Source: a bacterium
GTDB lineage: Bacteria; Bdellovibrionota; UBA1018
Length of the DNA: 64,000 nt
Direction of reading: 5' to 3'
NCBI GenBank assembly: GCA_019751945.1
Contig: JAIEMT010000003.1
Span: 34,993 to 98,992 of the forward strand
The stretch's first letter is position 1. Every line of letters begins with the position of its first letter. The position numbers and the translations under genes are program-made. The notes under the pieces were generated by a model. The model did no database searches and was not told the origin of the DNA. It worked only from the letters and a program-made list of their open reading frames with translations. Below, piece by piece: positions 34,458 to 54,065 of the stretch.

Positions 34458-36437
34458 TCACTGCGGGGCGGCCAGGCCTAAAATCTTGGCCGCCTTCGCA
34501 TACGCTTGATCCATCATCGTCTCCGGATCAAACACTCTCACCTGAATCTCAATCCCACCTGTTGAATTCAATTCTCGCTTCAGCAGCTTCTTAGTCACAG
34601 CCGATTCTAATAACACCTGTCGAACCTGTTCTTCGGTCAGAGCGGGGTACTTTGCCAAAATCAAAGTGGCAGCAGCAGAAATCGCTGGAGTGGAACACGA
34701 CGTTCCTCCCACGCAACGTTTGTCATAAGATTCGTACGCATAGATATCCACCGGCGATCCGTAGTTCGAGTAAGAAGCAACCTCATCAAAGCCCGAGAGC
34801 GATTGCGACGCTCTTCTCAGAGCCCCCACACAGAGAATTCTGGAGAGCGGCCGATTCTGCGCCGGTACATCCAACATACAACTCGGCAGCTTATTGCTGT
34901 CCAAACTCAAACCACTGTTCCCTGCACTCATTACCCAGAGCCACGGGGTATTTTGAAAGAACTGGTCGTCTTTTATGGAGCGAAGAAGGGGCTGCATCAT
35001 GAAGGACATCGAAAGGGATACGATGCGCGGTTTTACCGGCGCATCCATTGCCGAAACCATGGCATCCCAAGTGCCAGCAAAAACCCCACGCCAAGTTCCA
35101 CGACCCTCGTGATTTCCGGAATTTTGTTGGCCCGCTAAGATCTGTCGAAGCGACTGCACCTTCCACATCGCCACATCGACTTTACGTTGTTCCAACGTTT
35201 CTTTGGAAAGCGAACCCACCAACGTGAGCAAGCTGGCCATCGTTCCCGTTCCGTGACCAAAAAGACCACCCGAATCTCCAGGCAACCAAGCGTTGCTGTC
35301 GTGATCGGTGGCATCAATCGAAGAAATTTCTCCGCTCTTCCCCTGACCCATGAACATTCCGAGCTCTGGAAAAGTTTGGAAGTCGACACCGGAATCCATG
35401 AACGCCACTCGGACAGCATCAGAAGCCGCTGCGGGGTGTACCGGCAACTCCGGATTATCACTGTCGCGCGCTTTTTTATAATCCGCGACCGCCGAAGCGA
35501 AAACCGTGTTCCCTAGAACAAAGCGATCGAGATATTCTTCGACCAGGGAGAAAAGCGGGTGCCGCTTTTGAAAATCAATCGGTGTAAAAATTTCGTCCGG
35601 CGTGGCGGGCAAGAGCGCTCCCCAGAGCAGGTAGCCCGTGTGAGCCGAAATATCTGGAATAGTATACGGCGTGGGGAGCGAGAAGTTCTTCTGAACTTCC
35701 GGCATTCCCGCAACGGTTTCAAACCAGAGTCGATCGGGCTCGGTAACATCGAGAGCACGCAGAAGCGCTTTCACTCTATCCAAATGAGCAAAGGCTTCCA
35801 GCGTAGCCCGATTCTGCTTTAAATAATCCACCACGCGAGCGCTGGCCTCTTTCAATGCCTTTTGGCGCTGAACGGACAAGGCATGAAGCTCGTCTAGTTC
35901 GGAGTCTTCATAGCGGGCGCGAGCCAGCTGACTTAAATCCTGCCGCATCCGACTCAGAAGCGAATTGTCTGGCTGATGCCCACCCAGGTACTCCGCCAGT
36001 TCTTTTAAACTCAGCCGAGAAAGCGGTTTCTGATCTTCCGGTAATCTAAAAAACTGAAAATGCTGGAAAGCCAGCCGAGTAACGTCATCGGCTGGCTCCA
36101 GCAAGTCGTGTGTGCAAAACAGTAATGAGACTAGTGCAGCTTGCTTCTGTCGAGTGCTTGCCGCCGGATCAAACGGAATCAAAGATCGGCACTCAGACGG
36201 GGTCTTTACCCCCATACTGGGCGCCTGCGGAGTCACGACCTCAAACCGGTCACTTCCCGGTACGTAGTCCGTAGCTCTCCACTTTTGGTTGATTTCGTTG
36301 AGTCGACGAATGGTTTCGCCTGAGACCAGTTCATCCACCGCCTTCTGCGTTGGATTGCCCTGCCCACAGGCCGATAATACAAATAATCCTACAGCAACGG
36401 CGATGCCGCCGCTGTACTTCCCCCTGGATTCCTTCAA
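34458..36437 (-). CDS. subtilisin-like (S8) serine peptidase lipoprotein with long N-terminal extension
   Basis: Lipobox LSAC; catalytic triad motifs AFMDSGVD (Asp), HGTGTMAS (His), GTSCSTP (Ser); about 350-aa N-terminal region of unknown function. Confidence 0.7.
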   Translation of the reverse strand: MKESRGKYSGGIAVAVGLFVLSACGQGNPTQKAVDELVSGETIRRLNEINQKWRATDYVPGSDRFEVVTPQAPSMGVKTPSECRSLIPFDPAASTRQKQAALVSLLFCTHDLLEPADDVTRLAFQHFQFFRLPEDQKPLSRLSLKELAEYLGGHQPDNSLLSRMRQDLSQLARARYEDSELDELHALSVQRQKALKEASARVVDYLKQNRATLEAFAHLDRVKALLRALDVTEPDRLWFETVAGMPEVQKNFSLPTPYTIPDISAHTGYLLWGALLPATPDEIFTPIDFQKRHPLFSLVEEYLDRFVLGNTVFASAVADYKKARDSDNPELPVHPAAASDAVRVAFMDSGVDFQTFPELGMFMGQGKSGEISSIDATDHDSNAWLPGDSGGLFGHGTGTMASLLTLVGSLSKETLEQRKVDVAMWKVQSLRQILAGQQNSGNHEGRGTWRGVFAGTWDAMVSAMDAPVKPRIVSLSMSFMMQPLLRSIKDDQFFQNTPWLWVMSAGNSGLSLDSNKLPSCMLDVPAQNRPLSRILCVGALRRASQSLSGFDEVASYSNYGSPVDIYAYESYDKRCVGGTSCSTPAISAAATLILAKYPALTEEQVRQVLLESAVTKKLLKRELNSTGGIEIQVRVFDPETMMDQAYAKAAKILGLAAPQ

Positions 36438-36613
36438 GAAAGTTCCCCCCCGGAAATTTTCCTGGGCGCCGATTATCCCGCCCCCAATTCAAATACAAGG
36501 CACACCGTCCCAATAGCCGCTCCAGGACTCTGGCGGGGAGCGCAAGAATTTGCTTGTCCCGAGCCCCCTCTCTTGTTAGCTAAGGATTTCAATCCAATGT
36601 GACTATGTGAGGT

Positions 36614-36688
36614 TGGGGTGTCGACAAGCGGTAAGTCACTGGATTTTGATTCCAGTATTCCTAGGTTCGAATCCTAGCACCCCAGCCA
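36614..36688 (+). tRNA. tRNA-Gln (anticodon TTG)
   Basis: Manual fold: acceptor TGGGGTG/CACCCCA with U1:A72; D-arm GACA-AGCGGTA-AGTC; anticodon stem CTGGA/TCCAG with loop TTTTGAT; T-arm CTAGG-TTCGAAT-CCTAG; discriminator G; CCA encoded. Confidence 0.85.
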
Positions 36689-37259
36689 ACTTTTCATCTC
36701 CTCTTATTTTTATTAGAGTTTTTTCAGGACTTACATTTTTGCGATCAATTGCGATCACCTCAGCCTCCCACTTTCGGTCGGAGACTTTTGTCAGCGCGCT
36801 TGCTTGGCGTTTTGCATACACATACGCTGACTGTGCCGATGAATTGCCAAGAAGCTGCTTTGCAACTTCGAGGTCAGAGGTTTCGTTATAGAGATTTCGA
36901 GTCCCTCCATGCCTCAAAACATGAGTGCCTGTATACGGCAGTCCCGCACTTCTGAAGGCTTGGTCATAGGCGTATTGAATCTGCCTATACTCAAAATGTC
37001 TTCCTCCTGATTCAAAGATCAGTCCTTTGGCTCCTGAAACATGCAAAGCCTCTAAGGCACGGTAGGTCTGTGGAAACATCGGATGTTCCTTAATCCCTTT
37101 ATTGGAATAGGAATTTTTGAAACCTGATTTTACCGCAGACAAGAGCCCCTTCTTTCTGGGCCATGAGACATATCGCACAACTTTGAGTCGAGACCTCTTA
37201 GGGTCGGACTGCAACAAAGTGTCCCGCTTTTTTGTTAACCGGACTTTTGACGCGATCAT
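36636..37259 (-). pseudogene. int: tyrosine recombinase (phage integrase) C-terminal catalytic fragment, separated from its N-terminal part by an IS insertion
   Basis: HVLRHGGTR (HxxR) box and downstream Tyr region; 3' end overlaps the tRNA-Gln 3' end; the first about 13 codons are IS-derived. Confidence 0.7.
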
Positions 37260-37297
37260 TTAAAGGATGATTTAATCTTTTAAACCGCGTCAAAGGA

Positions 37298-37639
37298 GTG
37301 AAGCGAATGGACCAACAAAATCAGAATACCCCACGTAAAAAGTTATCGCCAGACCAGAAGTTTAAAGTCATCAAAGAGCAAATGACGACGAAGACTTCGA
37401 TAAGCGATATTTGCAAAAAGTACGACATTGTTCCGTCGCAGTTTTACAAGTGGCAGGAGAAGTTTCTGAGTGGAGCTTTGGAGGGTTTCAAAAAATCTGA
37501 TGATGGCCCCACCAAGGCAGAACTTCGTAAAATTGATGAGCAGGAAAAAAGAATTCAGAAAATGCAGTCTGCAATCACCGAAATTATCCAGGAAAATATT
37601 GAGTTAAAAAAAAATCTTGGGGCTTCGGGACTTTTGTAG
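37298..37639 (+). CDS. IS3-family transposase OrfA (HTH)
   Basis: Matches IS3/IS911 OrfA pattern (KFKVIKEQMTTKTSISDICKKYDIVPSQFYKWQEKF, leucine-zipper tail); likely ATG at 37307 after GGAG. Confidence 0.8.
   Translation: MKRMDQQNQNTPRKKLSPDQKFKVIKEQMTTKTSISDICKKYDIVPSQFYKWQEKFLSGALEGFKKSDDGPTKAELRKIDEQEKRIQKMQSAITEIIQENIELKKNLGASGLL
37606..37614 (+). other. A9 slippery run, candidate programmed -1 frameshift site for OrfAB fusion
   Basis: A-run at the end of orfA where the orfB frame overlaps; typical of the IS3 family. Confidence 0.5.
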
Positions 37640-37668
37640 AAGTTCCCCCGGCAATCAGACCGCAAATC

Positions 37669-38604
37669 GTGGCTGATGTTGTTTTGCAACAGGATAGGTG
37701 TGAGCTGCAGCTTGAAGATTTGCTGCTTTGGTATGGGGTTAAAAAATCCACGTTTTATGACTGGCAAAAAGAGCCCACGATGGATGCAGAAAAGCCCCCG
37801 TTTGTAAGCGCCGCCTCGGTTCGTCCCGATGAGATTGCAGCAGTGCTGGCATATCGGGATCTTTACCCAGACATCGGGTACCGCAAGTTCACCTGGCAGA
37901 TGGTGGATGCGAACGTAGCGTTTTTATCGGAAAGCAAGGTCTACGATATTTTATCTGCCCACAATCGGCTTCAGGGATGGAACAAAGTCGACAACGGCGA
38001 AACTGGAAAAGAATATCGTCACAAACCCAGGTACGTTCACTATCACTGGCACACGGATATTGCGTACATCAAAGTGGGTGGAATCTTTTATTTTTTGATT
38101 ATGATGTTGGATGGCTACTCCCGGTATCTGCTGGATTGGGAGCTGATGACGGACATGCTTGGCGGGTCAGTTGAAAATTTTGTTCAACGTGTGAAAGAAA
38201 AATATCCACATGCACGGCCACGGCTGATCAACGACAATGGATCTCAGTTTATCAGTCACGATTTTAAACGACTTTTGCAAAAACTGGAAATCCAACAAAT
38301 ATTTACGCGCAGAAACCACCCGCAAACCAACGGGAAGATCGAACGAATGAATGGCACCGTCAAACAAGAAGCGCTTCGTCCCGGTCAACCTTGCGACTTT
38401 AGCGAGGCGTGGGAAATCTTGAACAAGTACAGTTACGAATACAATCACCAACGGCTGCATGCTGGGATCAATTTTTTGCGACCAGCGGATATGTTTTTTG
38501 GGCGTGGTGGGCAGGTGCTCAACGAACGTCGGGAAAAAATCGAAAATGCCCGCGCCGATCGAAAATCGCTCAACCGCGAGGAACGAATGAAAAATCTCCA
38601 CTAA
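37669..38604 (+). CDS. IS3-family transposase OrfB (DDE integrase core)
   Basis: HTDIAY...LIMMLDGYSR...NDNGSQFIS...HPQTNGKIER rve-domain motifs with D, D, E. Confidence 0.8.
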   Translation: MADVVLQQDRCELQLEDLLLWYGVKKSTFYDWQKEPTMDAEKPPFVSAASVRPDEIAAVLAYRDLYPDIGYRKFTWQMVDANVAFLSESKVYDILSAHNRLQGWNKVDNGETGKEYRHKPRYVHYHWHTDIAYIKVGGIFYFLIMMLDGYSRYLLDWELMTDMLGGSVENFVQRVKEKYPHARPRLINDNGSQFISHDFKRLLQKLEIQQIFTRRNHPQTNGKIERMNGTVKQEALRPGQPCDFSEAWEILNKYSYEYNHQRLHAGINFLRPADMFFGRGGQVLNERREKIENARADRKSLNREERMKNLH

Positions 38605-38636
38605 ATTTTTGCGTCAAAAGTCCGGATAGAAAAAAG

Positions 38637-39455
38637 CTAGACAAAAGATACGTCCTCCCAAAAAAGCCCTGCTACCTCAGAAATTCTCAAAGCCTGAAAA
38701 TATTGAACAGTTGCCATTGCCGAAAAGATCTCTCCATTTGGCTGCTCTCGAAGCTTTTCACAAAATCCCGAGAACTCTTCGACGGTAAGATCTCTAGATT
38801 TAGGTTTCGATTCACGGTTCAGCTTAACGGCCTTCTGGTGTCTCTCCTTGATCGGGTACCTGTATCTGGAGTCGTCATAGTACTCGCCATAGTATTTGAG
38901 AATCGTCCCTAATAACGAAAGCTCGTGATCAAATGACTTTCTGCGAACAGATTTCATAAAGGATCCTCTTGGGTCCTTCAAGGAATCAATCCATCGATCT
39001 ATTGCTGCTGAATCAGTTTTGAGAACTGGCAAATCCATCAACTGCTGAAAGTAAAGATTCACAATCTTTTCGTAGGCTACTCTTGTACTTTCCGCGAGCG
39101 TCGGAAATATTCTCGTTTTCCATTCTTCAATCAGCGTACCGAGAACAGGTCCTAAATCAGTTAAAACCCCGTCTGCCTTTATTTGAGTTTCCTGCGAAGC
39201 CTGCCACTTTCTGGCTTCCTCTAAAGTTGAAAAATACTCACTGATACGAATTGGTTTGCCATTAGCATCAGGTTCATACTTTTTAGCTAAATAATACTTT
39301 CCAGAAATTGGAAGAAGGTATTCTTTCCTGTCATTGTTCCAGACATATAAACGAGAGATCCTCGGCGCTCCGATGACTGCTCTATAAATACGATTCTTTC
39401 CTTCGTATTGTTTTGGATTTAGTTTCTTCACGGTTTGCTCCTTTTTTTGAGCCAC
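38637..39455 (-). pseudogene. int: tyrosine recombinase (phage integrase) N-terminal fragment: SAM-like domain plus box I
   Basis: Ends ...ALRISEVAGLFWEDV (box I Arg region) immediately before the IS end; continues in 36636-37259. Confidence 0.7.
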
Positions 39456-39616
39456 TCCGTGACTTCTCTTACCGAAAATCTTACGGCTCTACCGATCTTG
39501 AAATGAGGAAGTCCCTCGTAACGCATCAGTTTACTGATATAGCTGGGACAAACAGACAAGAGTTCGGCAAGCCGCTTCCTGGTTACATAGTGTTGGTTTT
39601 CAAAGAACGGCCCCAT
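39428..39616 (-). CDS. AlpA-family excisionase / phage transcriptional regulator (HTH)
   Basis: 62 aa; RLAELLSVCPSYISKLMRYEGLPHFKIGRAVRFSVREVTEWL matches the AlpA/Xis HTH_17 pattern; sits immediately upstream of int. Confidence 0.7.
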   Translation of the reverse strand: MGPFFENQHYVTRKRLAELLSVCPSYISKLMRYEGLPHFKIGRAVRFSVREVTEWLKKRSKP

Positions 39617-39618
39617 GG

Positions 39619-40044
39619 TTAGCCACCCTTCTTGTTTTTTTCAAGAGGTATGGTCGCAAAATCCAAGGTAAGTCCAACCCGTCCTCCTTCAAGAAGATAG
39701 TCTATGAGGAGGTTGTCCGGCGGGACCGATTCGCCCTTCCCTTTTAGAGGGCTACCAGAAGGGGGGGCGGGGGTTCTTTTTGGGTCAGGTTTCTCCAACA
39801 ATTTCAACAACAATTCATTCGAGTAACAATATCGACGAGACATTCTAAGCTGCCTCTTAGTTTCCAAAGGAACTTCCAAGTACTGAACCATGAAATCCAG
39901 GCCTGATTTTTTTAAAACAATCTTTTGAGGAAATGGCAGTAGATCAGAAAATTTAGAATCCGCGAGCTTCCTACTCTCGTTAAAAATATAAGCTACAAAA
40001 AGGTCGGGTCCTCTTTTTCTGATAAGACCGTACTTTCCAAACAA
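39619..40044 (-). CDS. hypothetical protein (island-encoded)
   Basis: 141-aa ORF, AT-rich, no recognisable motif; ATG-TGA-coupled to alpA. Confidence 0.3.
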   Translation of the reverse strand: MFGKYGLIRKRGPDLFVAYIFNESRKLADSKFSDLLPFPQKIVLKKSGLDFMVQYLEVPLETKRQLRMSRRYCYSNELLLKLLEKPDPKRTPAPPSGSPLKGKGESVPPDNLLIDYLLEGGRVGLTLDFATIPLEKNKKGG

Positions 40045-40077
40045 CCTCAGATCTTGTGAATTGACGTCGTCTTAAGG

Positions 40078-41533
40078 TCAGTTGAAATTTGAAGTTGAGT
40101 GGTTCACTCTTTCGGCAACTACGCTGTCAGAGAAACTCAACCGGTTGGATCGTAAAATCCGGCCAGACAAGGAACCACTCAACATGTCTATCCAAATATA
40201 TTTAGCCAATAAAAAGCGCAAGCCCCGTCGTCCAGTCGTCGCGATTAGTTGCCAGGAACTGGAGGCGGGACAAGTCCCAGGGTTCGAGCCTGGCGTGATG
40301 ATCGACTCCCAGCACTTGCTCATCTCGACATTGCTACCGCCAGCGGTGAAGGAGTTTCTCGCTCAATGCGAGAGGGAGGTCGCGAGCATCTGCGGAAAGC
40401 CTCACGCTCGTGAGGAGGGACTACTGTCGCGCTGGGGCACCCAGGCGGGATCGATCTATCTGGGAGGCCAGAAAGTCGCAGTGCAAAAGCCGCGCGTCAG
40501 GGGTAGCGAGGGCGAGCACACGCTCTCGACCTACGAGAGGTTTCAAGACCCCGCTCTTTTTGATCAGCAGGTATTCCAGGAGGGGATCCGCCGCGTCAGT
40601 CAGCGCGATTACGAGAAGGGGCTTCCGAAGATTGCTGCGAGCTTTGGAATGAGTAAAAGCAAAGTTTCAAAAAGCTGGGTAAAAGCAACGGAAAATCAGC
40701 TCGAAAAACTTCGTACTCGAAGCCTCAAAGAATTTGGAATCATAGCCGTCTTCATCGACGGCAAACGTTTCTCCAAACTCGGCGCCATCGTCGCGCTGGG
40801 AGTGGGAGCGGATGGGCGAAAACATGTGATCGGGCTTTATCAGAGTTCGACTGAGAACTCGGCTGCCTGCCGGGAACTTCTGGACGATCTGGAGCGGCGT
40901 GGATTGCCCGAAAGTGAGTTGCTGTTTGTCGTCGACGGCGGCAGCGGCTTGAACAAAGCCTTGGATGAAAAATATCAGTTGCACGATCCAAAGCAGAGCC
41001 GGGCCGTGCGAGTCCGTTGCCATATTCACAAATGGCGAAATATCACGGACGTGCTGACGCCGAAACAGAGCGAAGAGGCGTCAGGATTGTTCTGGGCCAT
41101 TCGGGAGGCCAGAGATCTGACTCAAGCCCTGGAGTGTGCGGCCTCACTGGAGCAGCTGCTCGGGAAGTTTAACGCCTCTGCGTTAGCCAGCTTTTTAGAG
41201 GCCAAGAATGACCTCCTGGCGCTTCATCGTCTGGGGCTCTCGGCTGAACTCCGGAAATTTTTCTCTACAACAAACCCGATCGAGAGTTTAAATTCTCTGC
41301 TCGAAGAGGACCTGAGGCGAGTGAAACGTTGGCAGGACTCGGCGCACTTCCAGCGCTGGCTTGCTACGGCATGTTTGCAGAACGAAAAGCGAATGCGACG
41401 GATCCGGGGCTTCCGATCTCTGCCAGCCGTCGTTGTGAGACTACAGTCGTTGTGTAATCAGGAAAAATCCGTTGACAAAGATACTCGAGCTGCGTGATGA
41501 ACTGCGAGCCACTCAACCGAGAGTTTCAACTGA
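40078..41533 (+). mobile_element. IS256-family (Mutator-type) insertion sequence, about 1.46 kb
   Basis: About 28-bp imperfect terminal inverted repeats TCAGTTGAAAYTY...GTTGAGTGG at 40078-40105 and 41506-41533 (rc); GC content higher than flanks; no clear 8-bp TSD. Confidence 0.65.
40082..41497 (+). CDS. IS256-family transposase
   Basis: C-terminal TTNPIESLNSLLEEDLRRVKRW matches the Mutator/IS256 TTNxIExxNxxhRRR signature; the ORF-track start lies within IRL, so the true start is probably internal (e.g. around 40184). Confidence 0.7.
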   Translation: MKFEVEWFTLSATTLSEKLNRLDRKIRPDKEPLNMSIQIYLANKKRKPRRPVVAISCQELEAGQVPGFEPGVMIDSQHLLISTLLPPAVKEFLAQCEREVASICGKPHAREEGLLSRWGTQAGSIYLGGQKVAVQKPRVRGSEGEHTLSTYERFQDPALFDQQVFQEGIRRVSQRDYEKGLPKIAASFGMSKSKVSKSWVKATENQLEKLRTRSLKEFGIIAVFIDGKRFSKLGAIVALGVGADGRKHVIGLYQSSTENSAACRELLDDLERRGLPESELLFVVDGGSGLNKALDEKYQLHDPKQSRAVRVRCHIHKWRNITDVLTPKQSEEASGLFWAIREARDLTQALECAASLEQLLGKFNASALASFLEAKNDLLALHRLGLSAELRKFFSTTNPIESLNSLLEEDLRRVKRWQDSAHFQRWLATACLQNEKRMRRIRGFRSLPAVVVRLQSLCNQEKSVDKDTRAA

Positions 41534-41630
41534 GTGAAGGACAAGGTCTGTGAATTAATTTTATTTTCAACAGCCCTATAGGAGCCAATATACTTAAGAC
41601 TCGTTTTAAAGCCGCTTATTTTTCTGGGTT

Positions 41631-42587
41631 TCATGCAGGCCTCCTTTCGGAGGCTCTTAGACCAAGAAAACGATTAATACGTTTTTTCCAAATCTTATTA
41701 AGATCTATATCTAATTTGCCAATGTAAGGAGCAATCGTCTTCGAAAAGTTACTACTAGAGTTGAATTCCTTTTTCGCAGGAGCAAAACCTATTTCAGCAG
41801 ATCTTTTTAAAAAATGCTGAACTACATGTGAACTCTTCAAACTCTTAAGCTGTACCTGCGACACCTGTTGAAATCTCAACCGCTCAAAAGGACTAATTGT
41901 CTGTAGCTTGTCGACTTCAGACAATGTCTTGATTGGTATTTTTTTTCCGTGAAGCTCAATTTCAATTCTAACCGCGTCAATATGACCGAAATCTGCTGGA
42001 CTATTCTTTGGAATGCAGTCGACGTCCTCTATTGGGACGCCACTTTTTTCGTACAATCTAACTAGGAAGGGCCGGCTTCCCATATAGAGGGTGCGTCCCC
42101 CGTCGCTTGACCACCGCTCGAAAGTTCTACATCCTGGCAAACTAATGCTCTGTGAAATTGTCGGATACGGAATGGCAAGGTTGACGCACAAATCTAATCG
42201 ATCGATCCTACCCTGTTCGATAATTTGACTGGAGAGGGAACCGAAGAGATCGGCGCTCCATTGTTTGAATTGGGAAATCGTCGAGAATTGGGACATGTGA
42301 AACTGGAGTAGACCTGGTGGTAGTGTTCCTCTCCTCGGCTCGAAACTAAAAAATACGTGATGATCATCTAAGTATCCCTCCAAACCATGACCAAGAAGGA
42401 AAACCACGCTTCGATACCATAGTTTTAACTCCAACTCAGTAATGGAACCACCCAAGTCTTGAACAAAATCCCTCGTTTTTTTGATAGCCGTGTTCTCTCT
42501 AAATTTCTCTCTTAGAATATGCAGGTTTTTGAGCGAGCTAGGATGGCGAAAACCGGCAAGTCCAGTGGGTGTGGAGGCAAATCCCAC
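41631..42587 (-). CDS. rep: rolling-circle replication initiator, Rep_trans (pT181 RepC-like) family
   Basis: Collinear matches to RepC motifs: RIDRLDLCVNLAI (cf. FTRLDLAFDFED), TLYMGSRPFLVRLYEK (cf. KYFGVRDSNRFIRIYNK), HIDAVRIEIELHGK (cf. HLWRVEIELKRD); similar length (318 vs 314 aa). Confidence 0.6.
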   Translation of the reverse strand: MGFASTPTGLAGFRHPSSLKNLHILREKFRENTAIKKTRDFVQDLGGSITELELKLWYRSVVFLLGHGLEGYLDDHHVFFSFEPRRGTLPPGLLQFHMSQFSTISQFKQWSADLFGSLSSQIIEQGRIDRLDLCVNLAIPYPTISQSISLPGCRTFERWSSDGGRTLYMGSRPFLVRLYEKSGVPIEDVDCIPKNSPADFGHIDAVRIEIELHGKKIPIKTLSEVDKLQTISPFERLRFQQVSQVQLKSLKSSHVVQHFLKRSAEIGFAPAKKEFNSSSNFSKTIAPYIGKLDIDLNKIWKKRINRFLGLRASERRPA

Positions 42588-42591
42588 TCCG

Positions 42592-45276
42592 CTATTGATA
42601 CTCCCTTGAAAGATAACCTAAGAAATTATCGACAGTACGATAAAAAACTAACGGCAAACCCGATGAGTTTAGGAGAAGCTTGGGGTATTGCCCTGCCAAA
42701 GAAGTGAAAGATCCACCGGAAGTGTTCTGATCGAGGTATTCGGCAGTCCAAGCTGCCTCTGTGACTAGCCGAGATTGTAAGGCGAGGCCCTGGAAGGCAG
42801 CTGAATAGTGAGAGATGTAGATTCTTCCTGAAGAGGTCACCTGAATACTCGGTGAAGTCACAATGTTTGAAGACGTTCCGGATGCTGCAACCACTTCTCC
42901 CGTAAATGCACCGGATCCTTGAGAAACACACCCAGCCACAGGTCCAGAGCATCCAACATACCTTATTTGTCCTGCGGTCATATCAAAGTGAGCAATGTGG
43001 GGAGAGTCGCTTGAGTCTAAGACCATTGAAATTCCCTCTCCTCGGGTGTTTCCTGAACTATCTAAAGATAAACAAGTCCATGAATAAGTAGACGATGTTA
43101 ACGCCTCGCTCGCGTAAGCTAGTTTAAGTGCACCATCCGACTGGTATACGATTACTGGTCGTCCAGTCGAAGTTAAAGCAAGGGTGGCATACTTCCCTGC
43201 ATCATTAGCTACGTTCCCGCAGGAACCTGTTCCTGTCATTCCATCGACGCTAAACCTCTTCCATCCCCCGCCGGGAGAAAAACGCGAAAACTTTAAACCA
43301 GTAGCACTGGCATCATAGTAGGCGACCCCTAAAGAAGTGCCTGACGAAGCGACCGAAGGGTATTGCCCTACATTGGCACTCGTGTCATCGACGACGGTGA
43401 CGGAAAATCCGGACTCATCATTCACTGATCTAGCTACATGAAGAGCCTGCGAAGCCGCTAGTCCGTTATAAAATGCGATAACTGGAGAATTATTAGAGTC
43501 ATAGGCTAAGCTCGGATAAGAACCAACGAACTGACCTGCTACACTCTCTGCCATGTTTACCACTGAAATTTGAGAAAAGGTTGGACTCCCAGCCGAGCCC
43601 CCCCTGACACCGTAATAAAGCTTCATATCGCCTGCAGTAGAGTCTTGAAAAAAGTATGTGTATCCTACTGTCCCCGAATTTGATTTTGCTGCCGCAAAAA
43701 CAGGTAAAGCTGTAGTGGGAAATAAGGATACTAAATTGTCGACATAGTCGAGTACAAAAGAACCAGCTGCGCCTCCGTTGGTAATGTCTGCCGCGATGCC
43801 AGAAGAAAGAACAATGTCATTTCCTGTTGCTCCTGCTCCTGCTGCTGGTAGTTGAGCGAAGGAACCATAAAGGGCATCAGAATTAAAATCATAAACAGCC
43901 CCCACTCCCTCAGCGCCTACAGTGGTCGTGGCAATCGTGGTGCCAGTAGCAAGCCATGCGCCAGCCGGCCCCGTCGATTTGTTTGCCAAAATCGTTGTCG
44001 TGCTATCCAAATAAAAAATGAAGTTTAAATTAATTGATGAACTCGAAGAAGCTAGCCTGAAACCGTTTTGCCCTTCATTTGATGCTCCTACCGATAAAGG
44101 TGCTCCCCAGGATCCCGATGCTCCTGTTTGTGAGTTTCCACAAGTTTGCGGAGCAGTTGCGGTGTACAAAGTGTTCGCAGGCGTAGCAGTCGTGTATAAA
44201 CCCACGATGGGGCGCTGAGTTGCTGCATCAATAGTGATGTCCATCCGGGTCGCTGCATTGGTGGTTGTTGTTATTCCTGCGGAAAAGCAGCTGGTTGCAC
44301 CTGTGCACCCATTAGAGAGCGACAAGGGACTCCAGGTCGAGCAGCTCCCGTTCGCATTCAAAGCTGTGCATCGAATTAAATAGGGTTTACCCGACCCAGC
44401 CGCCGCATCTACCGATGGCGTAGCTAAGAGCAACATGCCGTTTGCTGGACACATCACCGCTCCAGCTTGCATTGCACCTTGGGTCAACCCAGTAATGGTA
44501 CCGGCCCCGGAAACGGAGGCCATTACATCAGAGACAGACCAACTACCGGATGTGCTTCTAAATGCGTACTTTATAAAACTGTTTCCCACTAAGGTCTGCG
44601 CATAAAAAGAAAAAGTAAGATGAGGACGATTAGAAGAATCGAAGTTCAGTGTAAGCCCTTTGATTGCATCCACAGTGGCAGTGTTGGCGGCATTTGTGGC
44701 GCCTGCCGTAGCTGACGAAGCAAATGGTACCGTGATAGTCCATTCCCCGCTGGTTGAGCGCTCGGCATATCTCACTTGTTTATTCCCGGATCCGTTGAGA
44801 CTCATGCCATAGACATAGGCAATTGAAGGTCGCCCATCTGTGGTAAATGCGAGGCGAATAATACTCGCAGTTCCAGCGGCAGCAGCATTAGGCGCTCCGA
44901 GACAATAACTTCCTGCTATGCCACACACCACTGTCCCATAGTTGGCGTCCACCAGTTCGATGTTCCATCGTCCAAAAGTATCCAAGTAAGCATATTTGAG
45001 ACCCCCAACTGCTGCGGTTCCCGAGAATGAAGAATTCTTATCGTAGTAGGACACCGCGGGCCGCAGAGAAATCGGGTCGAGAGCCATATCATTTACTCCA
45101 CCGGTAAATGAATTAAAACTAAGAGAAGGTCCCGCCGCTACAATTCGTCGAATATCACTAGTGCCCCCACTATTGGTGGTGTCAGGTACCCCACTTATCT
45201 CAGTCTCGCAACCCAGCAGGAAGAGAACTAGTAGGACCGTCATTCCTGAACGGAAATTATTTTTCTGACTCAACAT
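42592..45276 (-). CDS. large (about 894 aa) Thr/Ser/Gly/Ala-rich surface lipoprotein, probable beta-rich adhesin/fibre
   Basis: Lipobox LLGC after MLSQKNNFRSGMTVLLVLF; very low-complexity Gly/Ala/Ser/Thr composition with repeated S/T-G-S motifs; GAGGGG RBS; 4 nt upstream of rep. Confidence 0.55.
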   Translation of the reverse strand: MLSQKNNFRSGMTVLLVLFLLGCETEISGVPDTTNSGGTSDIRRIVAAGPSLSFNSFTGGVNDMALDPISLRPAVSYYDKNSSFSGTAAVGGLKYAYLDTFGRWNIELVDANYGTVVCGIAGSYCLGAPNAAAAGTASIIRLAFTTDGRPSIAYVYGMSLNGSGNKQVRYAERSTSGEWTITVPFASSATAGATNAANTATVDAIKGLTLNFDSSNRPHLTFSFYAQTLVGNSFIKYAFRSTSGSWSVSDVMASVSGAGTITGLTQGAMQAGAVMCPANGMLLLATPSVDAAAGSGKPYLIRCTALNANGSCSTWSPLSLSNGCTGATSCFSAGITTTTNAATRMDITIDAATQRPIVGLYTTATPANTLYTATAPQTCGNSQTGASGSWGAPLSVGASNEGQNGFRLASSSSSINLNFIFYLDSTTTILANKSTGPAGAWLATGTTIATTTVGAEGVGAVYDFNSDALYGSFAQLPAAGAGATGNDIVLSSGIAADITNGGAAGSFVLDYVDNLVSLFPTTALPVFAAAKSNSGTVGYTYFFQDSTAGDMKLYYGVRGGSAGSPTFSQISVVNMAESVAGQFVGSYPSLAYDSNNSPVIAFYNGLAASQALHVARSVNDESGFSVTVVDDTSANVGQYPSVASSGTSLGVAYYDASATGLKFSRFSPGGGWKRFSVDGMTGTGSCGNVANDAGKYATLALTSTGRPVIVYQSDGALKLAYASEALTSSTYSWTCLSLDSSGNTRGEGISMVLDSSDSPHIAHFDMTAGQIRYVGCSGPVAGCVSQGSGAFTGEVVAASGTSSNIVTSPSIQVTSSGRIYISHYSAAFQGLALQSRLVTEAAWTAEYLDQNTSGGSFTSLAGQYPKLLLNSSGLPLVFYRTVDNFLGYLSREYQ

Positions 45277-45286
45277 AGAATCCCCT

Positions 45287-46090
45287 CTAAAAATTAAAAC
45301 GCACCTCGAATGGAACCGAGATTGGCAAAATTCGTTCGGAGGCTGACTGGGTACCCCTGGAACCTGCACCGGAAAAAAACTTTTGTTCCCATGTCGCGTT
45401 TGCAGATACACCGACCTGAAGGACTTCAGTAATACTGTATGTAAGAGCTACTTCTGGTTCGATAAAATATCCGAAATTATAAAACCCCGTATTTTGGTTC
45501 TTCTCGTAGTGAGAAATTGGGAAGCCAAATGAAATGCGAAACTCAAAACGAAAGTCACTCTTAAGTGAATTTATGTACTCTGTGAGAAAAAGAAGCCTCG
45601 TACTGCTCAGAGAGCTCATGACCTCACTCGGTGACGTTGGGGGGGTTGACTGCTGAAGAAGCTCTGCGCCTAAACCGAGCGATAATTTATCCACCACGGA
45701 AGAGCCACTGTCGGACTGAAAAAGATACCCGCTTAACAAAAAGCGTACTTTGGTGACCTCCTGGTTTACGCTGGACGGAGAAAGGCCACTGACTTTTAAC
45801 GTTACAGCTGTTTTCAGAAAAGTGGCTCGAATATAAGTCCCTGATTCACTCAGACGTCGTCGCAGCTCAGCTCCATAGACAGCGCCCGAACCATTAGGTA
45901 CCGACAAGCTCAGGCCAGAGCTATTCAAAGAATAGTTTAGTAAGCTCATACCCCCGAAAACTCGCGCGATCCACTTAGAGTTTTCGCCTGACAGATTTAG
46001 GCTATCCATATTCACTTTTTGTGGATTCTCTGCCCATGCAACCGTTCCGAAAGCTAAAATTGCGACAAGGCTAGCGGCAATCGCTTTCAT
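45287..46090 (-). CDS. outer-membrane beta-barrel protein
   Basis: Signal peptide MKAIAASLVAILAFGTVAWA; alternating-hydrophobic strands; C-terminal ...VPFEVRFNF with terminal Phe. Confidence 0.5.
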   Translation of the reverse strand: MKAIAASLVAILAFGTVAWAENPQKVNMDSLNLSGENSKWIARVFGGMSLLNYSLNSSGLSLSVPNGSGAVYGAELRRRLSESGTYIRATFLKTAVTLKVSGLSPSSVNQEVTKVRFLLSGYLFQSDSGSSVVDKLSLGLGAELLQQSTPPTSPSEVMSSLSSTRLLFLTEYINSLKSDFRFEFRISFGFPISHYEKNQNTGFYNFGYFIEPEVALTYSITEVLQVGVSANATWEQKFFSGAGSRGTQSASERILPISVPFEVRFNF

Positions 46091-46710
46091 CGGGGAAGCT
46101 CCTGCTCTCTAAATCCTTCGAATAGATAATTCGGATTCTTGGTGGCAGAAGGGCTAGTCTGCAATGAAGGTGGTGGTCCGACTGCAACCGTATTGCTCAA
46201 AGCAGGTCCAAAAGGTGCAAAGGCAACGGTATTTTTCGCTAATCTTTCAGATCCAGGAAGCAATATTTGCCGCGATCTCTCACGGGGTGAGGAATCGCCA
46301 ACTGTAGCAATGTCTCTTTCAGGCTGTGGGGGAACTATTGCCTCGAACTGAGAAGTAGCAGTGTCTAAGAGCCGACGAATTCCGTTTTTGACTTCTTCAA
46401 TTGTAGAAACTTTTAAAACGTACCGAAGCCTCTTTTTTGACAAACCCATTTCCTGGAGCTCTGGAATTCGAAGCTTTGTACCTAACGACACCACATCAGG
46501 ACTAGTAAGTCTATTTTTGTTTGCATCATAAATCTCACGCCAAAGTTGATGCGTTCCAAAAATACGATACGAAAAAGTTGCCAGTGTTTCGCCCGAAAGG
46601 ATGGTCTCCTCACGTACGGTGTCGGCGGAGTATCCAAGTTCTAAAAAAAAGAAAAAAGCAAACATTACCCAAATACAAATACGCATCCATTTACCGATCA
46701 TTAGGGGCAC
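46087..46710 (-). CDS. LysM domain-containing secreted protein
   Basis: TVREETILSGETLATFSYRIFGTHQLWREIYDANKNRLTSPDVVSLGTKLRIPEL is a canonical LysM; N-terminal TM/signal; Pro-rich C-terminus. Confidence 0.65.
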   Translation of the reverse strand: MPLMIGKWMRICIWVMFAFFFFLELGYSADTVREETILSGETLATFSYRIFGTHQLWREIYDANKNRLTSPDVVSLGTKLRIPELQEMGLSKKRLRYVLKVSTIEEVKNGIRRLLDTATSQFEAIVPPQPERDIATVGDSSPRERSRQILLPGSERLAKNTVAFAPFGPALSNTVAVGPPPSLQTSPSATKNPNYLFEGFREQELPR

Positions 46711-48169
46711 CTCCTAATGATCCAGCAAGCTTGCGTTTTAGTGAGTTCAGTTTTCTCGATGTCGATAACTCTAGGTGCGTTGGAACCTTGGCTCGTTCTA
46801 AAATGCTGATAGCCTCGTTAACTTTTCCAGTTTTTTCCATTAATAGTGCCAGGTTGACGCTCGCCTTAGGTCCAAACTCGGCATGATTCACTATTTTTCG
46901 GTATCTCGCTTCTGCTTCTTCATTTGCACCGGCAGATTCTAGAGTTAGAGCCAAATTAAAAGAGATAACAGGGTTCTCAGGATATCTTTTCTCAGCACCA
47001 AGGAGAATTTCAGCCGATTCTTTATATTTTTTCTGTTGATAAAATGTAATCGCTTTAAGGACAGCCACCTCGGGGTCAGTCTCTTCACTGGTTCTTATTT
47101 TCTTAATTTTATCGTAGGCCTGTTCGGGCAGATTGAAAGACAAGTAAAGTTTTGCCAATGCAATTGAGGCCCAGGACTGGTCCGGAGCCCTCTCATTATA
47201 AACAGCAACTAAGGAACCCGCTGCCTCCAGCTTTTTTTGGCTGATATAAAGATCAAATAGCAATCGGGTCGCCTGGTCAGAGGCAGGTTCTATTTTCAAC
47301 ACCTCTCGCAATGAATCTTCGGCTTTGTCGGGTTGCTTCAACTGAAGGTAAATCTCTGCTAAGCGCAAGCGCGGACTAGTTATCAAAGGTTCCAGTTCAA
47401 CAATTTTCGTTCCAACAGTTTGCGCTTCGCCTAAGCGTCCCAATGCCACCAATGCTTCCATCTTCCCATTCCAACCAGCCAAATTGGAGGGGTGGCTCGT
47501 CACGATACGTTCGAAAATGCGAAGACTTTCTTTTGCCTGATGGGTTTTAAGGTAAATATTTCCCAGACTTTCAAGTGCGGCTAAATTGTTGGGATCAGAT
47601 AAAAGCACTCGTAAGTAATCACTAATGGCGAATGTGGTCTTGCCCAACGCCTCGGCATTCCTAGCCGCTAAAAGGATTAAGTCTAAACTCTTACCTTTCT
47701 GTTTGCGTGAAGCCAAGAGTTCTTCAAGTTCAATATGTCTTGATAAACTGAAGAGGAGCTCGGCCCGTAGGATAAGAGCCTCTGGGTAGTCCCCCCGCAA
47801 CTTTTCAGCACGGCTTACTTCGACAAGAGCATCTTCCGATTTTCCGAAAGCCTTTAGACACTTGGCTTTAAGAAACCGTGCCTCTGCCCTAAACGGATTC
47901 TGATCTTCCAATAACTCATTGACCATAGCCAGAGCTTGATCTGGGTTGCCTACCGCTAATAGTACGCGAACCTGGCCTGTAATCGCTTCTTCCCGATACT
48001 CGCTTCTCTGAGCGAGCCGACGGTAAATTGAAAGAGCTGTGCGGAAATCATTGGAGCGTTCGGCGCTCTTAGCCAAAGAAATGTAATCAACGACGTCGAT
48101 ACCCTGCGCCCTTGGCTCTCCAATAAAAATTAAGCTAAATAAGCAAAGGACCCTAATGCAGTTCCCCAT
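46691..48169 (-). CDS. tetratricopeptide-repeat (TPR) protein, secreted
   Basis: Signal peptide then more than 10 consecutive TPR-like 34-aa helical repeats (A/L/Y-rich, W-LG-Y pattern). Confidence 0.7.
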   Translation of the reverse strand: MGNCIRVLCLFSLIFIGEPRAQGIDVVDYISLAKSAERSNDFRTALSIYRRLAQRSEYREEAITGQVRVLLAVGNPDQALAMVNELLEDQNPFRAEARFLKAKCLKAFGKSEDALVEVSRAEKLRGDYPEALILRAELLFSLSRHIELEELLASRKQKGKSLDLILLAARNAEALGKTTFAISDYLRVLLSDPNNLAALESLGNIYLKTHQAKESLRIFERIVTSHPSNLAGWNGKMEALVALGRLGEAQTVGTKIVELEPLITSPRLRLAEIYLQLKQPDKAEDSLREVLKIEPASDQATRLLFDLYISQKKLEAAGSLVAVYNERAPDQSWASIALAKLYLSFNLPEQAYDKIKKIRTSEETDPEVAVLKAITFYQQKKYKESAEILLGAEKRYPENPVISFNLALTLESAGANEEAEARYRKIVNHAEFGPKASVNLALLMEKTGKVNEAISILERAKVPTHLELSTSRKLNSLKRKLAGSLGGAPNDR

Positions 48170-48265
48170 GCATTAGTTATCGGGATCTTTTGTAAAGTAT
48201 TAAAAAAAAAAAGAAGGCAATCTTTTGACTGTGATGGAGCCGGCCCCAGGGCCGTGAAATGAGTT

Positions 48266-49303
48266 CTAATTTGTAGAAACCATCATACTCGTTACGCAAC
48301 GAGTATAAATTTGGGACGGGATATACGGACTAGTTCCAACGCGAGTTAAGGCGCCCGAGGCATAAGTAAACTTTTCAATGGTATTCGAGGTACTCAACGC
48401 ATTCGCGACATAGACATTGCCGGATGACGAATCAAGAGCCATAGCGGAGGGACCATTGATGATGGTCGAGTCCGAAAATGCAACTGCGGTATTAGAGATC
48501 GCGTTAGTCGTCGGATTGATGTCGTAAGAGTAAACATAATTTGATCCTGCAGTCGTGCTTCCATAGGCAACCAGTATTTTTCCGCTCGTATGCATCATGA
48601 TCCCAGTGGGCAGAGCCGTAGTACTAGGAGCCGTTTGCGAGGAGAGACAATCAGCAGACACGCTGTATCCGGTGGCTGCAATGACACCAAATTTGTTGTT
48701 CGGAGTTGCTGCCGCGTGGGCGTAGAGAATCTTTCCATTTGAGAGCGTGGTCATGCTGGAGATTAATGTGGTCGAGGTGGCACAGGAACCTGCCGGTGCG
48801 CTAACAAAAGGATTGGCCCCAGAGGTGATGCGAGATTTGTTAGAAGAAAATTTCTCAAGAGCCGTACCTTTGCTAACCAATAAACCTCCATCCGGCGACA
48901 TAAATATGCCTCGAAGCTGTGCGCTCATGGCCGTACTATTCACCAAATAGGTCGTTACCGTGTTGTAATAGGTCTTATCTACAAGATCAATTCTGCGACC
49001 ACTTGCGTTTTCAACCAAAACCAAAATTTGAGATGAGCTATAGTTGACCATGCCCACTGGCGAGTCGGATGGAGAAAATGAGTTGTAATCTACCAGTAGA
49101 GTATCATAGGCCCCCGTGGCCAAATCAAACTTAGTAATCGTGTTAGAGGCAGTGCTCACGGCGACGCCTCCACCGTAACAGGTCCCGCTTGCGACGTAGA
49201 GGAATGGGCCACTGGTTCCGGAAGGGGTGAGTACGTCCAAATTACCGCAGCTAAAGGCGACAGAACTAAGAGTCAAAACCAAAAAAAATCTTGACCTGGG
49301 CAT
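48266..49303 (-). CDS. lipoprotein, Ser/Thr-rich, probable beta-propeller-like repeats
   Basis: Lipobox AFSCG after MPRSRFFLVLTLSSV; repeated hydrophobic-strand/S-T-G segments; first gene of the five-gene minus-strand operon; the ORF-track start at 49321 is probably too far upstream. Confidence 0.45.
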   Translation of the reverse strand: MPRSRFFLVLTLSSVAFSCGNLDVLTPSGTSGPFLYVASGTCYGGGVAVSTASNTITKFDLATGAYDTLLVDYNSFSPSDSPVGMVNYSSSQILVLVENASGRRIDLVDKTYYNTVTTYLVNSTAMSAQLRGIFMSPDGGLLVSKGTALEKFSSNKSRITSGANPFVSAPAGSCATSTTLISSMTTLSNGKILYAHAAATPNNKFGVIAATGYSVSADCLSSQTAPSTTALPTGIMMHTSGKILVAYGSTTAGSNYVYSYDINPTTNAISNTAVAFSDSTIINGPSAMALDSSSGNVYVANALSTSNTIEKFTYASGALTRVGTSPYIPSQIYTRCVTSMMVSTN

Positions 49304-49492
49304 TTTACTTCCTCCGCGCATTTCGATACCACCAATATTATATCGTAATTATTTAGTTAATAGTTAAGGGCGGAATACGACATAGGGCGTTATATCTCTC
49401 ATAACAGCTTGTTAAATATTCTAAATGTAATAAATTGTTAACCTTTTGTTTTTTGTCAACTCACAAGTTCGTTCTGCCGAACGGTAATAGTA

Positions 49493-50098: not shown

Positions 50099-50505
50099 AA
50101 AAGCTGCTCCAACTCCTTGAAGGGCCCGGCGTACTAAAGATGAAGCGCGAGAACCGGAAGGCGAATCCTAATCCACGTACACGAGTTCAGATTTCAAAAA
50201 AGGCATTTCGCCCACCATTCTCAAATCCCGCCAGGGTATAAAGTCAGCGATGTGCAACCAACATTGAAGTGAAAAGTAGATCAAATCCTGCTGACACTGG
50301 AGTTGGAACCCTCTATCCATTTTGGATTAAGGTCAGAAAAGTGAGCCGATTTTGCAAAGAAAAAAGCAGCTCGAATGACCCTCTTTTGTTGCCCAACGGA
50401 GTAGCAATGCCAAGTCAAGATCGGGAAGCAGGAGTTCCCCTTTAAGACTTTTAGAATCCTTGTAAATTAAATCATTCTTATAGTTAGCGAGGGGGTCCGT
50501 ATTTT

Positions 50506-50805: not shown

Positions 50806-50977
50806 CTTTGCTTCTCCTCACTGTAAAAATAAAAGTCAGAATTCGACCTCGCTCTGACTTCGCGATTGCAACATACCGGTCTTCTGATTTTGAGTGAGAG
50901 CAGCTCATCGTCTCTTCAAAGCTCACGCCATGCTTTTCAAGGTTCCTGGCTGCTTTACGACTTTCCCGCTCAAACAC
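50729..50977 (-). CDS. brnT: BrnT toxin (DUF497 ribonuclease)
   Basis: ARNLEKHGVSFEE...HSKSEDRYVAIA...RILTFIFTVRR...FRIISSRCASKKERKVY matches the BrnT consensus; 82 aa. Confidence 0.65.
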   Translation of the reverse strand: MFERESRKAARNLEKHGVSFEETMSCSHSKSEDRYVAIAKSERGRILTFIFTVRRSKDGKEKFRIISSRCASKKERKVYPRS

Positions 50978-53032: not shown

Positions 53033-53052
53033 GTTTCAGCTACACTCCCTTT

Positions 53053-54064: not shown

Positions 54065-54065
54065 T

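What the first reader, a model, noticed from the sequence alone, without database searches (positions are those of the whole stretch)
36636..39455. Island integrase is split in two by an IS3-family insertion
The integrase N-terminal part (38637-39455, ending in the box I region ALRISEVAGLFWEDV) and the C-terminal catalytic part (36636-37259, with HxxR and Tyr) are collinear on the minus strand. They are separated exactly by the IS3 element (IRs CCGGACTTTTGACGC at 37239-37253 and 38611-38625). The island is therefore probably immobilised, and the insertion is probably recent because both halves are still intact ORFs.
Basis: seen in the sequence. Interest (0 to 1): 0.5.

Follow-up and report, generated by a model that had tools for sequence, protein, structure and literature searches.

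The report
Island integrase broken by IS3 insertion
A 1.4-kb jumping gene of the IS3 family has landed inside the integrase gene of a genomic island next to a tRNA-Gln gene, cutting the enzyme in two; this is a clean but ordinary example of how mobile islands lose their own mobility gene.

Summary
On the minus strand, ORFs 38637-39455 and 36636-37259 are the two halves of one tyrosine integrase. An IS3-family insertion sequence lies between them.

The real ends are TG at 37220 and CA at 38643 (1,424 bp, about 50-bp imperfect inverted repeats). The element is flanked by a 4-bp target duplication, AAAG.

Removing the IS plus one AAAG gives a single 463-aa ORF. It aligns without a gap to 420-460-aa integrases of Bdellovibrionota. 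A family profile matches the halves at positions 2-269 and 270-436. The break separates Arg-I (R257) from H369/R372/Y404.

The IS looks intact: orfA, orfB in the -1 frame, and an A AAA AAA slippery site. The fused OrfAB passes NCBIfam's IS3 cut-off.

"Recent" is only partly right. Neither half has decayed, but every sampled assembly carries the same insertion and no intact allele was found. "Immobilised" is a reasonable inference, not shown.

This is an ordinary event and a new member of known kinds. Interest is low.

The parts
36614..36688 (+). tRNA-Gln (anticodon UUG). This is the presumed integration target. Its 3' part is overlapped on the opposite strand by the last ~17 codons of the integrase ORF.
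   Evidence: ARAGORN. Rfam RF00005, 61.9 bits at 36614-36685.
36636..37219 (-). C-terminal part of the integrase (residues ~270-463 of the restored protein). It carries H369, R372, N395 and Y404. The listed ORF 36636-37259 adds 13 IS-encoded codons, starting from an ATG inside the IS left end.
   Evidence: Family HMM positions 270-436. XerD alignment for the catalytic residues.
37216..37219 (.). Left copy of the 4-bp target-site duplication AAAG.
37220..38643 (+). IS3-family insertion sequence, 1,424 bp, with TG...CA ends. Its transposase genes lie on the strand opposite to the integrase.
   Evidence: End alignment. A public 1,425-bp contig equals 37220-38644. A flank contig ends at 37249. Only one copy is in the window.
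37220..37267 (.). Left terminal inverted repeat (imperfect). The perfect 15-bp core is 37239-37253.
37298..37639 (+). orfA, 113 aa, with the HTH_Tnp_1 DNA-binding domain.
   Evidence: Pfam PF01527, E 4e-11.
37606..37612 (+). Candidate -1 frameshift site A AAA AAA, inside an A9 run (37606-37614). The -1 frame is open from 37612 into orfB.
   Evidence: The fused OrfAB (435 aa) scores 180.5 bits against NF033516, cut-off 160.
37669..38604 (+). orfB, 311 aa from the first start codon, with DDE transposase catalytic domains (rve, rve_3). It lies in the -1 frame relative to orfA.
   Evidence: Pfam PF00665, E 8e-16, and PF13683.
38597..38643 (.). Right terminal inverted repeat. The perfect core is 38611-38625. 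It contains the TAG (38637-38639) that ends the N-terminal integrase fragment.
38644..38647 (.). Right copy of the target-site duplication AAAG.
38644..39455 (-). N-terminal part of the integrase (residues 1-~270), including box I with Arg-I (R257). The listed ORF 38637-39455 adds two IS-encoded codons and the stop.
   Evidence: Family HMM positions 2-269.
39428..39616 (-). 62-aa excisionase/AlpA-like HTH gene directly upstream of the integrase start, overlapping it by 28 nt.
   Evidence: Pfam HTH_17, E 8e-9. TIGR01764 'excise', 29.2 bits against a cut-off of 28.8.

Best explanation
A tyrosine integrase gene sits next to tRNA-Gln, convergent with it. It belongs to a Bdellovibrionota-wide family of integrases that lie beside tRNA or tmRNA genes. 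It has been inactivated by transposition of a 1,424-bp IS3-family element into codon 269/270.

The IS has the full IS3 anatomy:
- TG...CA ends within ~50-bp imperfect inverted repeats.
- orfA (HTH) and orfB (DDE/rve) in the 0 and -1 frames.
- An A AAA AAA slippery site that would give an OrfAB transposase by programmed -1 frameshifting.
- A 4-bp target duplication (AAAG).

The break falls 12 residues after the box-I arginine. One fragment (272 aa) keeps the N-terminal DNA-binding part and Arg-I. The other fragment (193 integrase residues behind 13-14 IS-encoded residues) keeps His, Arg and the nucleophilic Tyr. Neither polypeptide has a complete active site, so the island has lost its own integration and excision enzyme.

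Shown: the anatomy, the precise restoration of the reading frame, and the homology. Inferred: loss of activity, frameshifting, and immobility of the island.
For: - ORFs and sequence.
- Inverted repeats with TG/CA ends and the AAAG duplication.
- Deleting 37220-38647 gives a 463-aa ORF, whereas cutting at the 15-bp core repeats leaves an in-frame TAG.
- Pfam Phage_integrase spans the junction, residues 224-408, 45.3 bits against a cut-off of 27.1.
- 204 homologues were found. The best full-length ones have 40-59% identity and cover 89-98% of the query.
- The alignment has no gap at ...FWEDV|SLLQSDPKRSRL....
- A family HMM matches the fragments at 2-269 and 270-436, with no other hit among the window's ORFs.
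- XerD alignment maps R257, H369, R372 and Y404.
- IS domains HTH_Tnp_1, rve and rve_3.
- The OrfAB fusion scores 180.5 bits over positions 2-367 of the 369-position IS3 model (cut-off 160). IS481 scores 176.7, below its cut-off of 224.
- An IS-only contig equals 37220-38644.
- Homologous integrases lie 30-240 nt from the 3' end of a tRNA or tmRNA gene in 18 of 24 related loci.
Against: - Nothing contradicts the split-gene reading.
- For the functional inferences, no activity can be measured here.
- Frameshifting has no support beyond the slippery run and the open -1 frame. The downstream hairpin is not better than shuffles (z -1.3) and there is no Rfam frameshift element.
- orfB alone scores slightly better against IS481 than against IS3.
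- No direct repeat of the tRNA 3' part marks the far end of the island, so 'island' rests on gene content and composition.
Confidence: 0.93

Rival explanations
1. The two ORFs are remnants of two different recombinase genes, or of an old pseudogene, that merely flank an IS. The apparent continuity would then be a coincidence.
For: None found.
Against: The frame is restored exactly when the IS plus one TSD copy is removed. The profile coordinates abut at 269|270. There is no gap at the junction against 10 full-length homologues.
Confidence: 0.01
2. The inserted element belongs to the IS481 family, or to another rve-type family, rather than to IS3.
For: orfB alone scores 151.5 bits against IS481 and 136.2 against IS3. 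The two families are close relatives.
Against: The two-ORF layout with orfB in the -1 frame and an A9 run at the overlap is the IS3 layout. IS481 transposases are single ORFs (established knowledge). The fused OrfAB passes the IS3 cut-off (180.5 against 160) and fails the IS481 cut-off (176.7 against 224). The TG...CA ends, the 4-bp TSD and the 1.42-kb length fit IS3.
Confidence: 0.05
3. The island is not immobilised. It can still move by an integrase supplied in trans from a related element elsewhere in the genome, by homologous recombination of its flanks between strains, or through rare residual activity.
For: The segment 36187-40189 and 46172-52482, which includes the IS, is 100% identical in assemblies whose neighbouring chromosome differs by 0.5-1.4% on the left and about 7% in 52483-53914 on the right. 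A published case shows low-level excision of an element whose integrase carries a frameshift (PMC12637031). Only 64 kb of the genome is visible.
Against: Divergence between these strains is patchy everywhere. For example, there are zero differences in 53915-57835 and in some 1-2-kb stretches on the left, so an identical island does not prove transfer. No second integrase of this family is in the window. A physical split between Arg-I and the rest of the active site is more severe than a slippery-tract frameshift.
Confidence: 0.2
4. The insertion is not recent. It is an old, fixed feature of this lineage.
For: All 13 contigs that carry the exact OrfB have the same insertion site, apart from one IS-only contig. 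Contigs from other samples reached through neighbouring genes also carry it. No intact allele above 59% identity exists among 5.8 billion proteins.
Against: Neither half has acquired a stop or a frameshift over 463 codons. The IS and the island show zero substitutions between strains. Both IS ORFs, both inverted repeats and the TSD are intact.
Confidence: 0.3

Closest known systems
IS3-family insertion sequences (such as IS911, IS150, IS3, IS407); NCBIfam NF033516
   Same: Length of 1.42 kb. Terminal inverted repeats ending 5'-TG...CA-3'. A 4-bp target duplication. orfA with HTH_Tnp_1 and orfB with rve/DDE in the -1 frame. An A-rich slippery heptamer at the orfA/orfB overlap. The fused OrfAB scores above the family cut-off.
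   Different: This is an unnamed element from an uncultured bacterium, probably of the Bdellovibrionota. The subgroup was not assigned because ISfinder is not available here. The inverted repeats are long (~50 bp) and contain one indel. No convincing frameshift-stimulating RNA structure was found.
tRNA-targeting tyrosine integrases of genomic islands and prophages (Pfam PF00589; lambda Int and P4 Int type; catalytic domain as in XerD, PDB 1a0p)
   Same: The catalytic domain has Arg-I, His-x-x-Arg and Tyr aligned to XerD R148, H244, R247 and Y279. The gene is convergent with a tRNA gene and close to its 3' end. A small Xis/AlpA-like HTH gene lies upstream.
   Different: The family is confined in the hits to Bdellovibrionota/Oligoflexia metagenome genomes. 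It has Asn where XerD has the second His (H270), in all 11 aligned members. The N-terminal region of ~220 aa has no Pfam match. In this copy the ORF runs on into the tRNA gene for 53 nt, which most relatives do not do.
Decay and domestication of integrative elements by loss of the integrase (cryptic prophages, anchored islands)
   Same: The integrase is knocked out while the cargo is kept. Related loci show the same fate. L019 is split by another IS3-type element. L024 has an IS3-type transposase abutting a remnant. L012, L015, L020 and L023 are 5'-truncated remnants beside tRNA genes.
   Different: There is nothing unusual here. Whether the host benefits from the anchoring is unknown.

Membership tests
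Tyrosine recombinase / phage integrase (PF00589) | Catalytic-domain profile match above the curated threshold | tested here: met
   The restored protein scores 45.3 bits against a cut-off of 27.1, over residues 224-408, which span the IS junction at 269/270.
Tyrosine recombinase / phage integrase (PF00589) | Catalytic residues Arg-I, His-x-x-Arg-II and nucleophilic Tyr present | tested here: met
   R257, H369, R372 and Y404 are invariant in the family alignment and align to XerD R148, H244, R247 and Y279. The second His is Asn (N395) in all members.
Tyrosine recombinase / phage integrase (PF00589) | Site-specific recombination activity | not testable with these tools
   This needs an excision or integration assay. 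The split gene is predicted to be inactive.
IS3 family | Transposase with an N-terminal HTH and a DDE (rve) catalytic domain that scores above the family cut-off | tested here: met
   HTH_Tnp_1, rve and rve_3 are present. The fused OrfAB scores 180.5 bits against the NF033516 cut-off of 160, covering positions 2-367 of 369.
IS3 family | Two overlapping ORFs, with orfB in the -1 frame and a slippery motif at the overlap | tested here: met
   orfA is 37298-37639 and orfB is in the -1 frame. A AAA AAA lies at 37606-37612, and the -1 frame is open from 37612. Actual frameshifting was not tested.
IS3 family | Terminal inverted repeats ending TG...CA, and a 3-5 bp target duplication | tested here: met
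   TG at 37220, CA at 38643, and AAAG on both sides. The ends are confirmed by an IS-only contig.
IS481 family | Single-ORF transposase scoring above the family cut-off | tested here: not met
   The score is 176.7 bits (fused) or 151.5 bits (orfB alone) against a cut-off of 224, and the element has a two-ORF layout.
tRNA-integrated genomic island | Integrase gene adjacent to the 3' end of a tRNA gene | tested here: met
   tRNA-Gln is at 36614-36688 and the int ORF ends at 36636. The same arrangement is seen in 18 of 24 related loci.
tRNA-integrated genomic island | Direct repeat of the tRNA 3' segment (att core) at the far end | tested here: not met
   Only a 21-nt exact copy in inverted orientation (52203-52223) and a 13/14 direct match (52360-52373) were found.
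tRNA-integrated genomic island | Absent from the same site in related genomes (empty site) | tested here: inconclusive
   Every assembly found carries the island. The exact tRNA sequence occurs in one JGI contig, which is also occupied.

The most novel reading that the evidence does not exclude
The island, with its integrase already broken, may still be spreading or sweeping through the population without its own integrase, for example by homologous recombination of short flanks. It is base-for-base identical, IS included, in strains whose adjacent chromosome differs by 0.5-7%. The IS is traversed by k=31 assemblies in several samples, which I take to mean it is single-copy there. That would be odd for a copy-out-paste-in element that jumped within this genome. 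A related possibility is that IS insertion into this integrase family recurs because selection favours anchoring the islands: 3 of 25 loci have IS3-type elements in or against the gene.
Probability: 0.15. Interest if true: 0.35.

Novelty: new member of a known kind. Interest (0 to 1): 0.15.

Why it matters
The value is mainly for annotation. The two 'hypothetical' or weak-integrase ORFs should be merged into one IS-disrupted integrase pseudogene. The IS should be annotated as 37220-38643, with orfAB produced by a -1 frameshift. The island should be flagged as lacking a working integrase of its own.

The finding also adds an unnamed IS3-family element and a tRNA-targeting integrase family from predatory or uncultured Bdellovibrionota. 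It does not open a new question.

Tried and rejected
1. A 4-bp 'CCGG' TSD puts the halves in the same frame but with that stop between them, so I rejected it in favour of TG/CA ends 19 bp (left) and 18 bp (right) further out.

2. I searched for the island's far att site as a direct repeat of the tRNA 3' end. With up to 3 mismatches over 33 nt, only the tRNA itself matched. Exact k-mers and short BLAST gave only an inverted 21-mer and a weak 13/14 direct match.

3. I tried to read the island ends from where public k=31 contigs break (36686/36657 and 52400/52372). No single empty-site or inversion junction fits both breaks, so this is left unresolved.

4. I looked for an uninterrupted allele. 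The protein search found no intact relative above 59% identity. The exact-tRNA scan of JGI metagenomes found only the same occupied locus. The species-representative genome scan did not contain this genome.

5. A frameshift-stimulating RNA was not supported. The hairpin after the slippery site is not significant and Rfam gave no hit.

6. I asked whether reading of the integrase ORF into the tRNA is a family trait. Most relatives stop 30-240 nt before the tRNA, so here it is an incidental tail.

7. I asked whether the identical island against diverged flanks proves horizontal spread. Divergence is patchy throughout, so I downgraded this to a possibility.

8. Two literature searches for a directly comparable published case gave no close precedent worth citing. 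The only useful find was a frameshifted integrase that still excised at low level.
Full report
**1. What is in the sequence**

On the minus strand there are two ORFs. ORF 38637-39455 (272 aa) ends ...ALRISEVAGLFWEDVSFV*. ORF 36636-37259 (207 aa) begins MIASKVRLTKKRDTLLQSDPK.... Between them, on the plus strand, lie a 113-aa ORF (37298-37639) and a 311-aa ORF (37669-38604).

**2. True ends of the insertion**

Aligning the two ends shows that the 15-bp repeat is only the perfect core of imperfect inverted repeats of about 50 bp. These start with TG at 37220 and end with CA at 38643, with one 1-nt indel between the arms. Immediately outside is AAAG on both sides (37216-37219 and 38644-38647).

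I scanned all deletions around the ends. No deletion that stops at or near the 15-bp core restores a frame, because the TAG that ends the N-fragment (38637-38639) lies inside the IS right end. Deleting 37220-38647, which is the IS plus one AAAG, gives a single ORF of 463 aa.

Public assemblies give independent support. A 1,425-bp contig present in four samples equals window 37220-38644 with no mismatch. In the same sample a flanking contig stops at 37249, exactly 30 nt (k-1) into the element. This is the pattern expected when the first 30 nt of the IS have more than one left-hand context.

**3. One gene, not two**

- The restored protein hits Pfam Phage_integrase over residues 224-408, across the junction at 269/270.
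- A search of 5.8 billion proteins returned 204 relatives. The best full-length ones are 420-460 aa, have 40-59% identity and cover 89-98% of the query. Those that carry a source name come from Oligoflexus, Pseudobdellovibrionaceae, Silvanigrellaceae and 'Deltaproteobacteria' MAGs.
- In an alignment with ten of them there is no gap at ...FWEDV|SLLQSDPKRSRLKVV....
- A profile built from that alignment matches the N-fragment at positions 2-269 and the C-fragment at 270-436. Nothing is lost or duplicated, and no other ORF in the window matches.
- Alignment to E. coli XerD identifies R257 as Arg-I, H369 and R372 as His-x-x-Arg, and Y404 as the nucleophile. Position 395 is Asn where XerD has His, in every member aligned.

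The IS therefore separates Arg-I from the rest of the active site.

**4. The inserted element**

orfA carries HTH_Tnp_1, and orfB carries rve and rve_3. orfB is in the -1 frame relative to orfA. An A9 run (37606-37614) contains A AAA AAA in the orfA frame, and the -1 frame is open from 37612 into orfB.

orfB alone scores slightly higher against the IS481 model than against IS3. The 435-aa OrfAB fusion, however, scores 180.5 bits over nearly the whole IS3 model (cut-off 160) and stays below the IS481 cut-off (176.7 against 224). Together with the TG...CA ends, the 4-bp duplication and the 1.42-kb length, this makes it an IS3-family element.

A hairpin follows the slippery site but is not better than shuffled sequence (z -1.3), and Rfam finds only the tRNA. 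So frameshifting is inferred from the layout only. The window holds a single copy.

**5. Setting**

tRNA-Gln(UUG) lies at 36614-36688 on the plus strand, and the integrase converges on it. In 18 of 24 related loci from species-representative genomes, a tRNA or tmRNA gene (Ser, Pro, Tyr, Leu, Arg, tmRNA) lies in the same convergent position just after the integrase. This family is therefore a tRNA-targeting island or prophage integrase.

Here the ORF lacks a stop where relatives end. It runs 53 nt into the tRNA gene, giving the tail ...LAGVLGFEPRNTGIKIQ. Most relatives stop 30-240 nt before the tRNA, so this tail is incidental.

Upstream, overlapping the integrase start, is a 62-aa HTH_17/'excise' gene. 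Next comes an IS256-family transposase (40082-41497). After that come ORFs without Pfam matches, a TPR protein, a BrnA-like antitoxin and a TauE gene. From about 53 kb there are clear core genes: DUF1428, MotA/MotB, ClpB and HtrA. GC content is 0.44-0.49 across 36-50 kb, against 0.50-0.53 to the left.

I could not find a direct repeat of the tRNA 3' part. The only copies are an exact 21-mer in inverted orientation at 52203-52223 and a 13/14 direct match at 52360-52373. The right end of the island is therefore unresolved.

**6. Age and mobility**

Neither half of the integrase has any stop or frameshift. The IS has intact ORFs, inverted repeats and target duplication, which fits a young insertion.

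But every assembly I could reach carries the same insertion at the same site:
- 13 contigs holding the exact OrfB, one of which is the IS alone;
- contigs reached through the neighbouring protease and trigger-factor genes;
- the only JGI contig that holds the exact tRNA.

These come from Logan, ENA, NCBI and JGI samples. No intact allele exists in the protein database.

Some of these assemblies differ from the window by 0.5-1.4% in the chromosome to the left, with the last difference at 36186. They differ by about 7% in 52483-53914. They have no differences in 36187-40189 and at most one in 46172-52482. This could mean the IS-bearing island has recently spread between strains. However, divergence is patchy throughout (for example, none in 53915-57835), so I treat this as a possibility only.

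'Immobilised' is the natural inference from a split active site. It is not demonstrated. Only 64 kb is visible, and a published element with a frameshifted integrase still excised at very low frequency (PMC12637031).

**7. Comparison and verdict**

Both components are members of well-known kinds. The event, an IS landing in the integrase of an integrated element, is a familiar route of decay.

The related loci show it repeatedly:
- L019 is split by a different IS3-type element at about residue 310, with TG...CA ends and an AGATG duplication.
- L024 has an IS3-type transposase abutting a remnant that starts at residue 374.
- L022 has an IS66-like ORF (judged by eye from the sequence, not tested against a profile) upstream of a truncated copy.
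- Four further loci are 5'-truncated remnants.

The finding is correct, well delimited and useful for annotation, but not surprising.

Noticed in passing
window 52203-52223 (minus strand) and 52360-52373 (plus strand): There is an exact 21-nt copy of the tRNA-Gln T-arm/acceptor 3' segment (36666-36686), but in inverted orientation, about 150 bp from where core genes resume. A 13/14 direct match, AATCCTAGCCCCCC, lies nearby. An att remnant would be expected as a direct repeat, so the inverted copy is unexplained. It could reflect an inversion or an older element. Integrase-driven inversions between tRNA fragments have been proposed in archaea (PMC5495485, listed but not read).
   Followed up: partly
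window 36657-36686 and 52372-52400: Public k=31 contigs break here. In SRR15085121 one contig ends at 36686 and the next spans 36657 to about 52400. In three samples the following contig starts at 52372. Contigs from SRR15085121, SRR15085120, ERR2163669 and SRR3303204 (the last contig seen in 4 samples) end at 52400. This suggests alternative junctions in the population at both ends of the ~15.7-kb island, but no single excision or inversion model fits both break points.
   Followed up: partly
window 41549-48143: In ENA assembly ERZ1079237 (L047), window position 48144 is joined directly to 41548, just after the IS256-family element. The 6.6-kb block of unknown ORFs plus the TPR gene is therefore absent in that strain. 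Logan contig L049 also ends at 48144. The island cargo is structurally variable next to the IS256 copy.
   Followed up: partly
window 52483-53200 (ORF 52430-53032 and start of DUF1428 gene): This gene for a 200-aa protein with a hydrophobic N-terminus is hypervariable. About 90 substitutions between strains fall within ~700 bp, while the 6 kb to the left and the 4 kb to the right (53915-57835) are identical. The neighbouring S8 protease gene (35175-36186) also concentrates the differences on the other side of the island.
   Followed up: no
L019 (JBEDKY010000467.1) 440-1775; L024 30-965; L022 ~2700-4000: Homologous integrases in other MAGs are also hit by insertion sequences. L019 is split at about residue 310 by a different IS3-type element (TG...CA ends, AGATG duplication). 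L024 has a related IS3-type transposase abutting an integrase remnant. L022 has an IS66-like ORF upstream of a truncated copy. The insertion sites all differ, so there is no sign of a specific target.
   Followed up: partly
window 40082-41497: This is an IS256-family (Mutator) transposase gene, at 176 bits against NF033543 (cut-off 150). Several public contigs end at 40092-40189, so this element is probably multi-copy in those samples.
   Followed up: no
window 36636-36688: The integrase ORF reads 53 nt into the tRNA-Gln gene on the opposite strand, giving the tail ...GVLGFEPRNTGIKIQ. Two relatives do the same with their own tRNAs: P0003 ends ...AGELGFEPR, and L021 reads through tRNA-Pro. Most relatives do not.
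   Followed up: yes
window 50506-50977: There is a small overlapping gene pair on the minus strand: a 99-aa BrnA-antitoxin-like ORF (weak Pfam hit in the precomputed annotation) and an 82-aa ORF upstream of it. It is probably a toxin-antitoxin pair inside the island.
   Followed up: no
window 10055-10156: This is a perfect tandem duplication of 51 bp (10055-10105 = 10106-10156), found in the self-comparison of the window.
   Followed up: no
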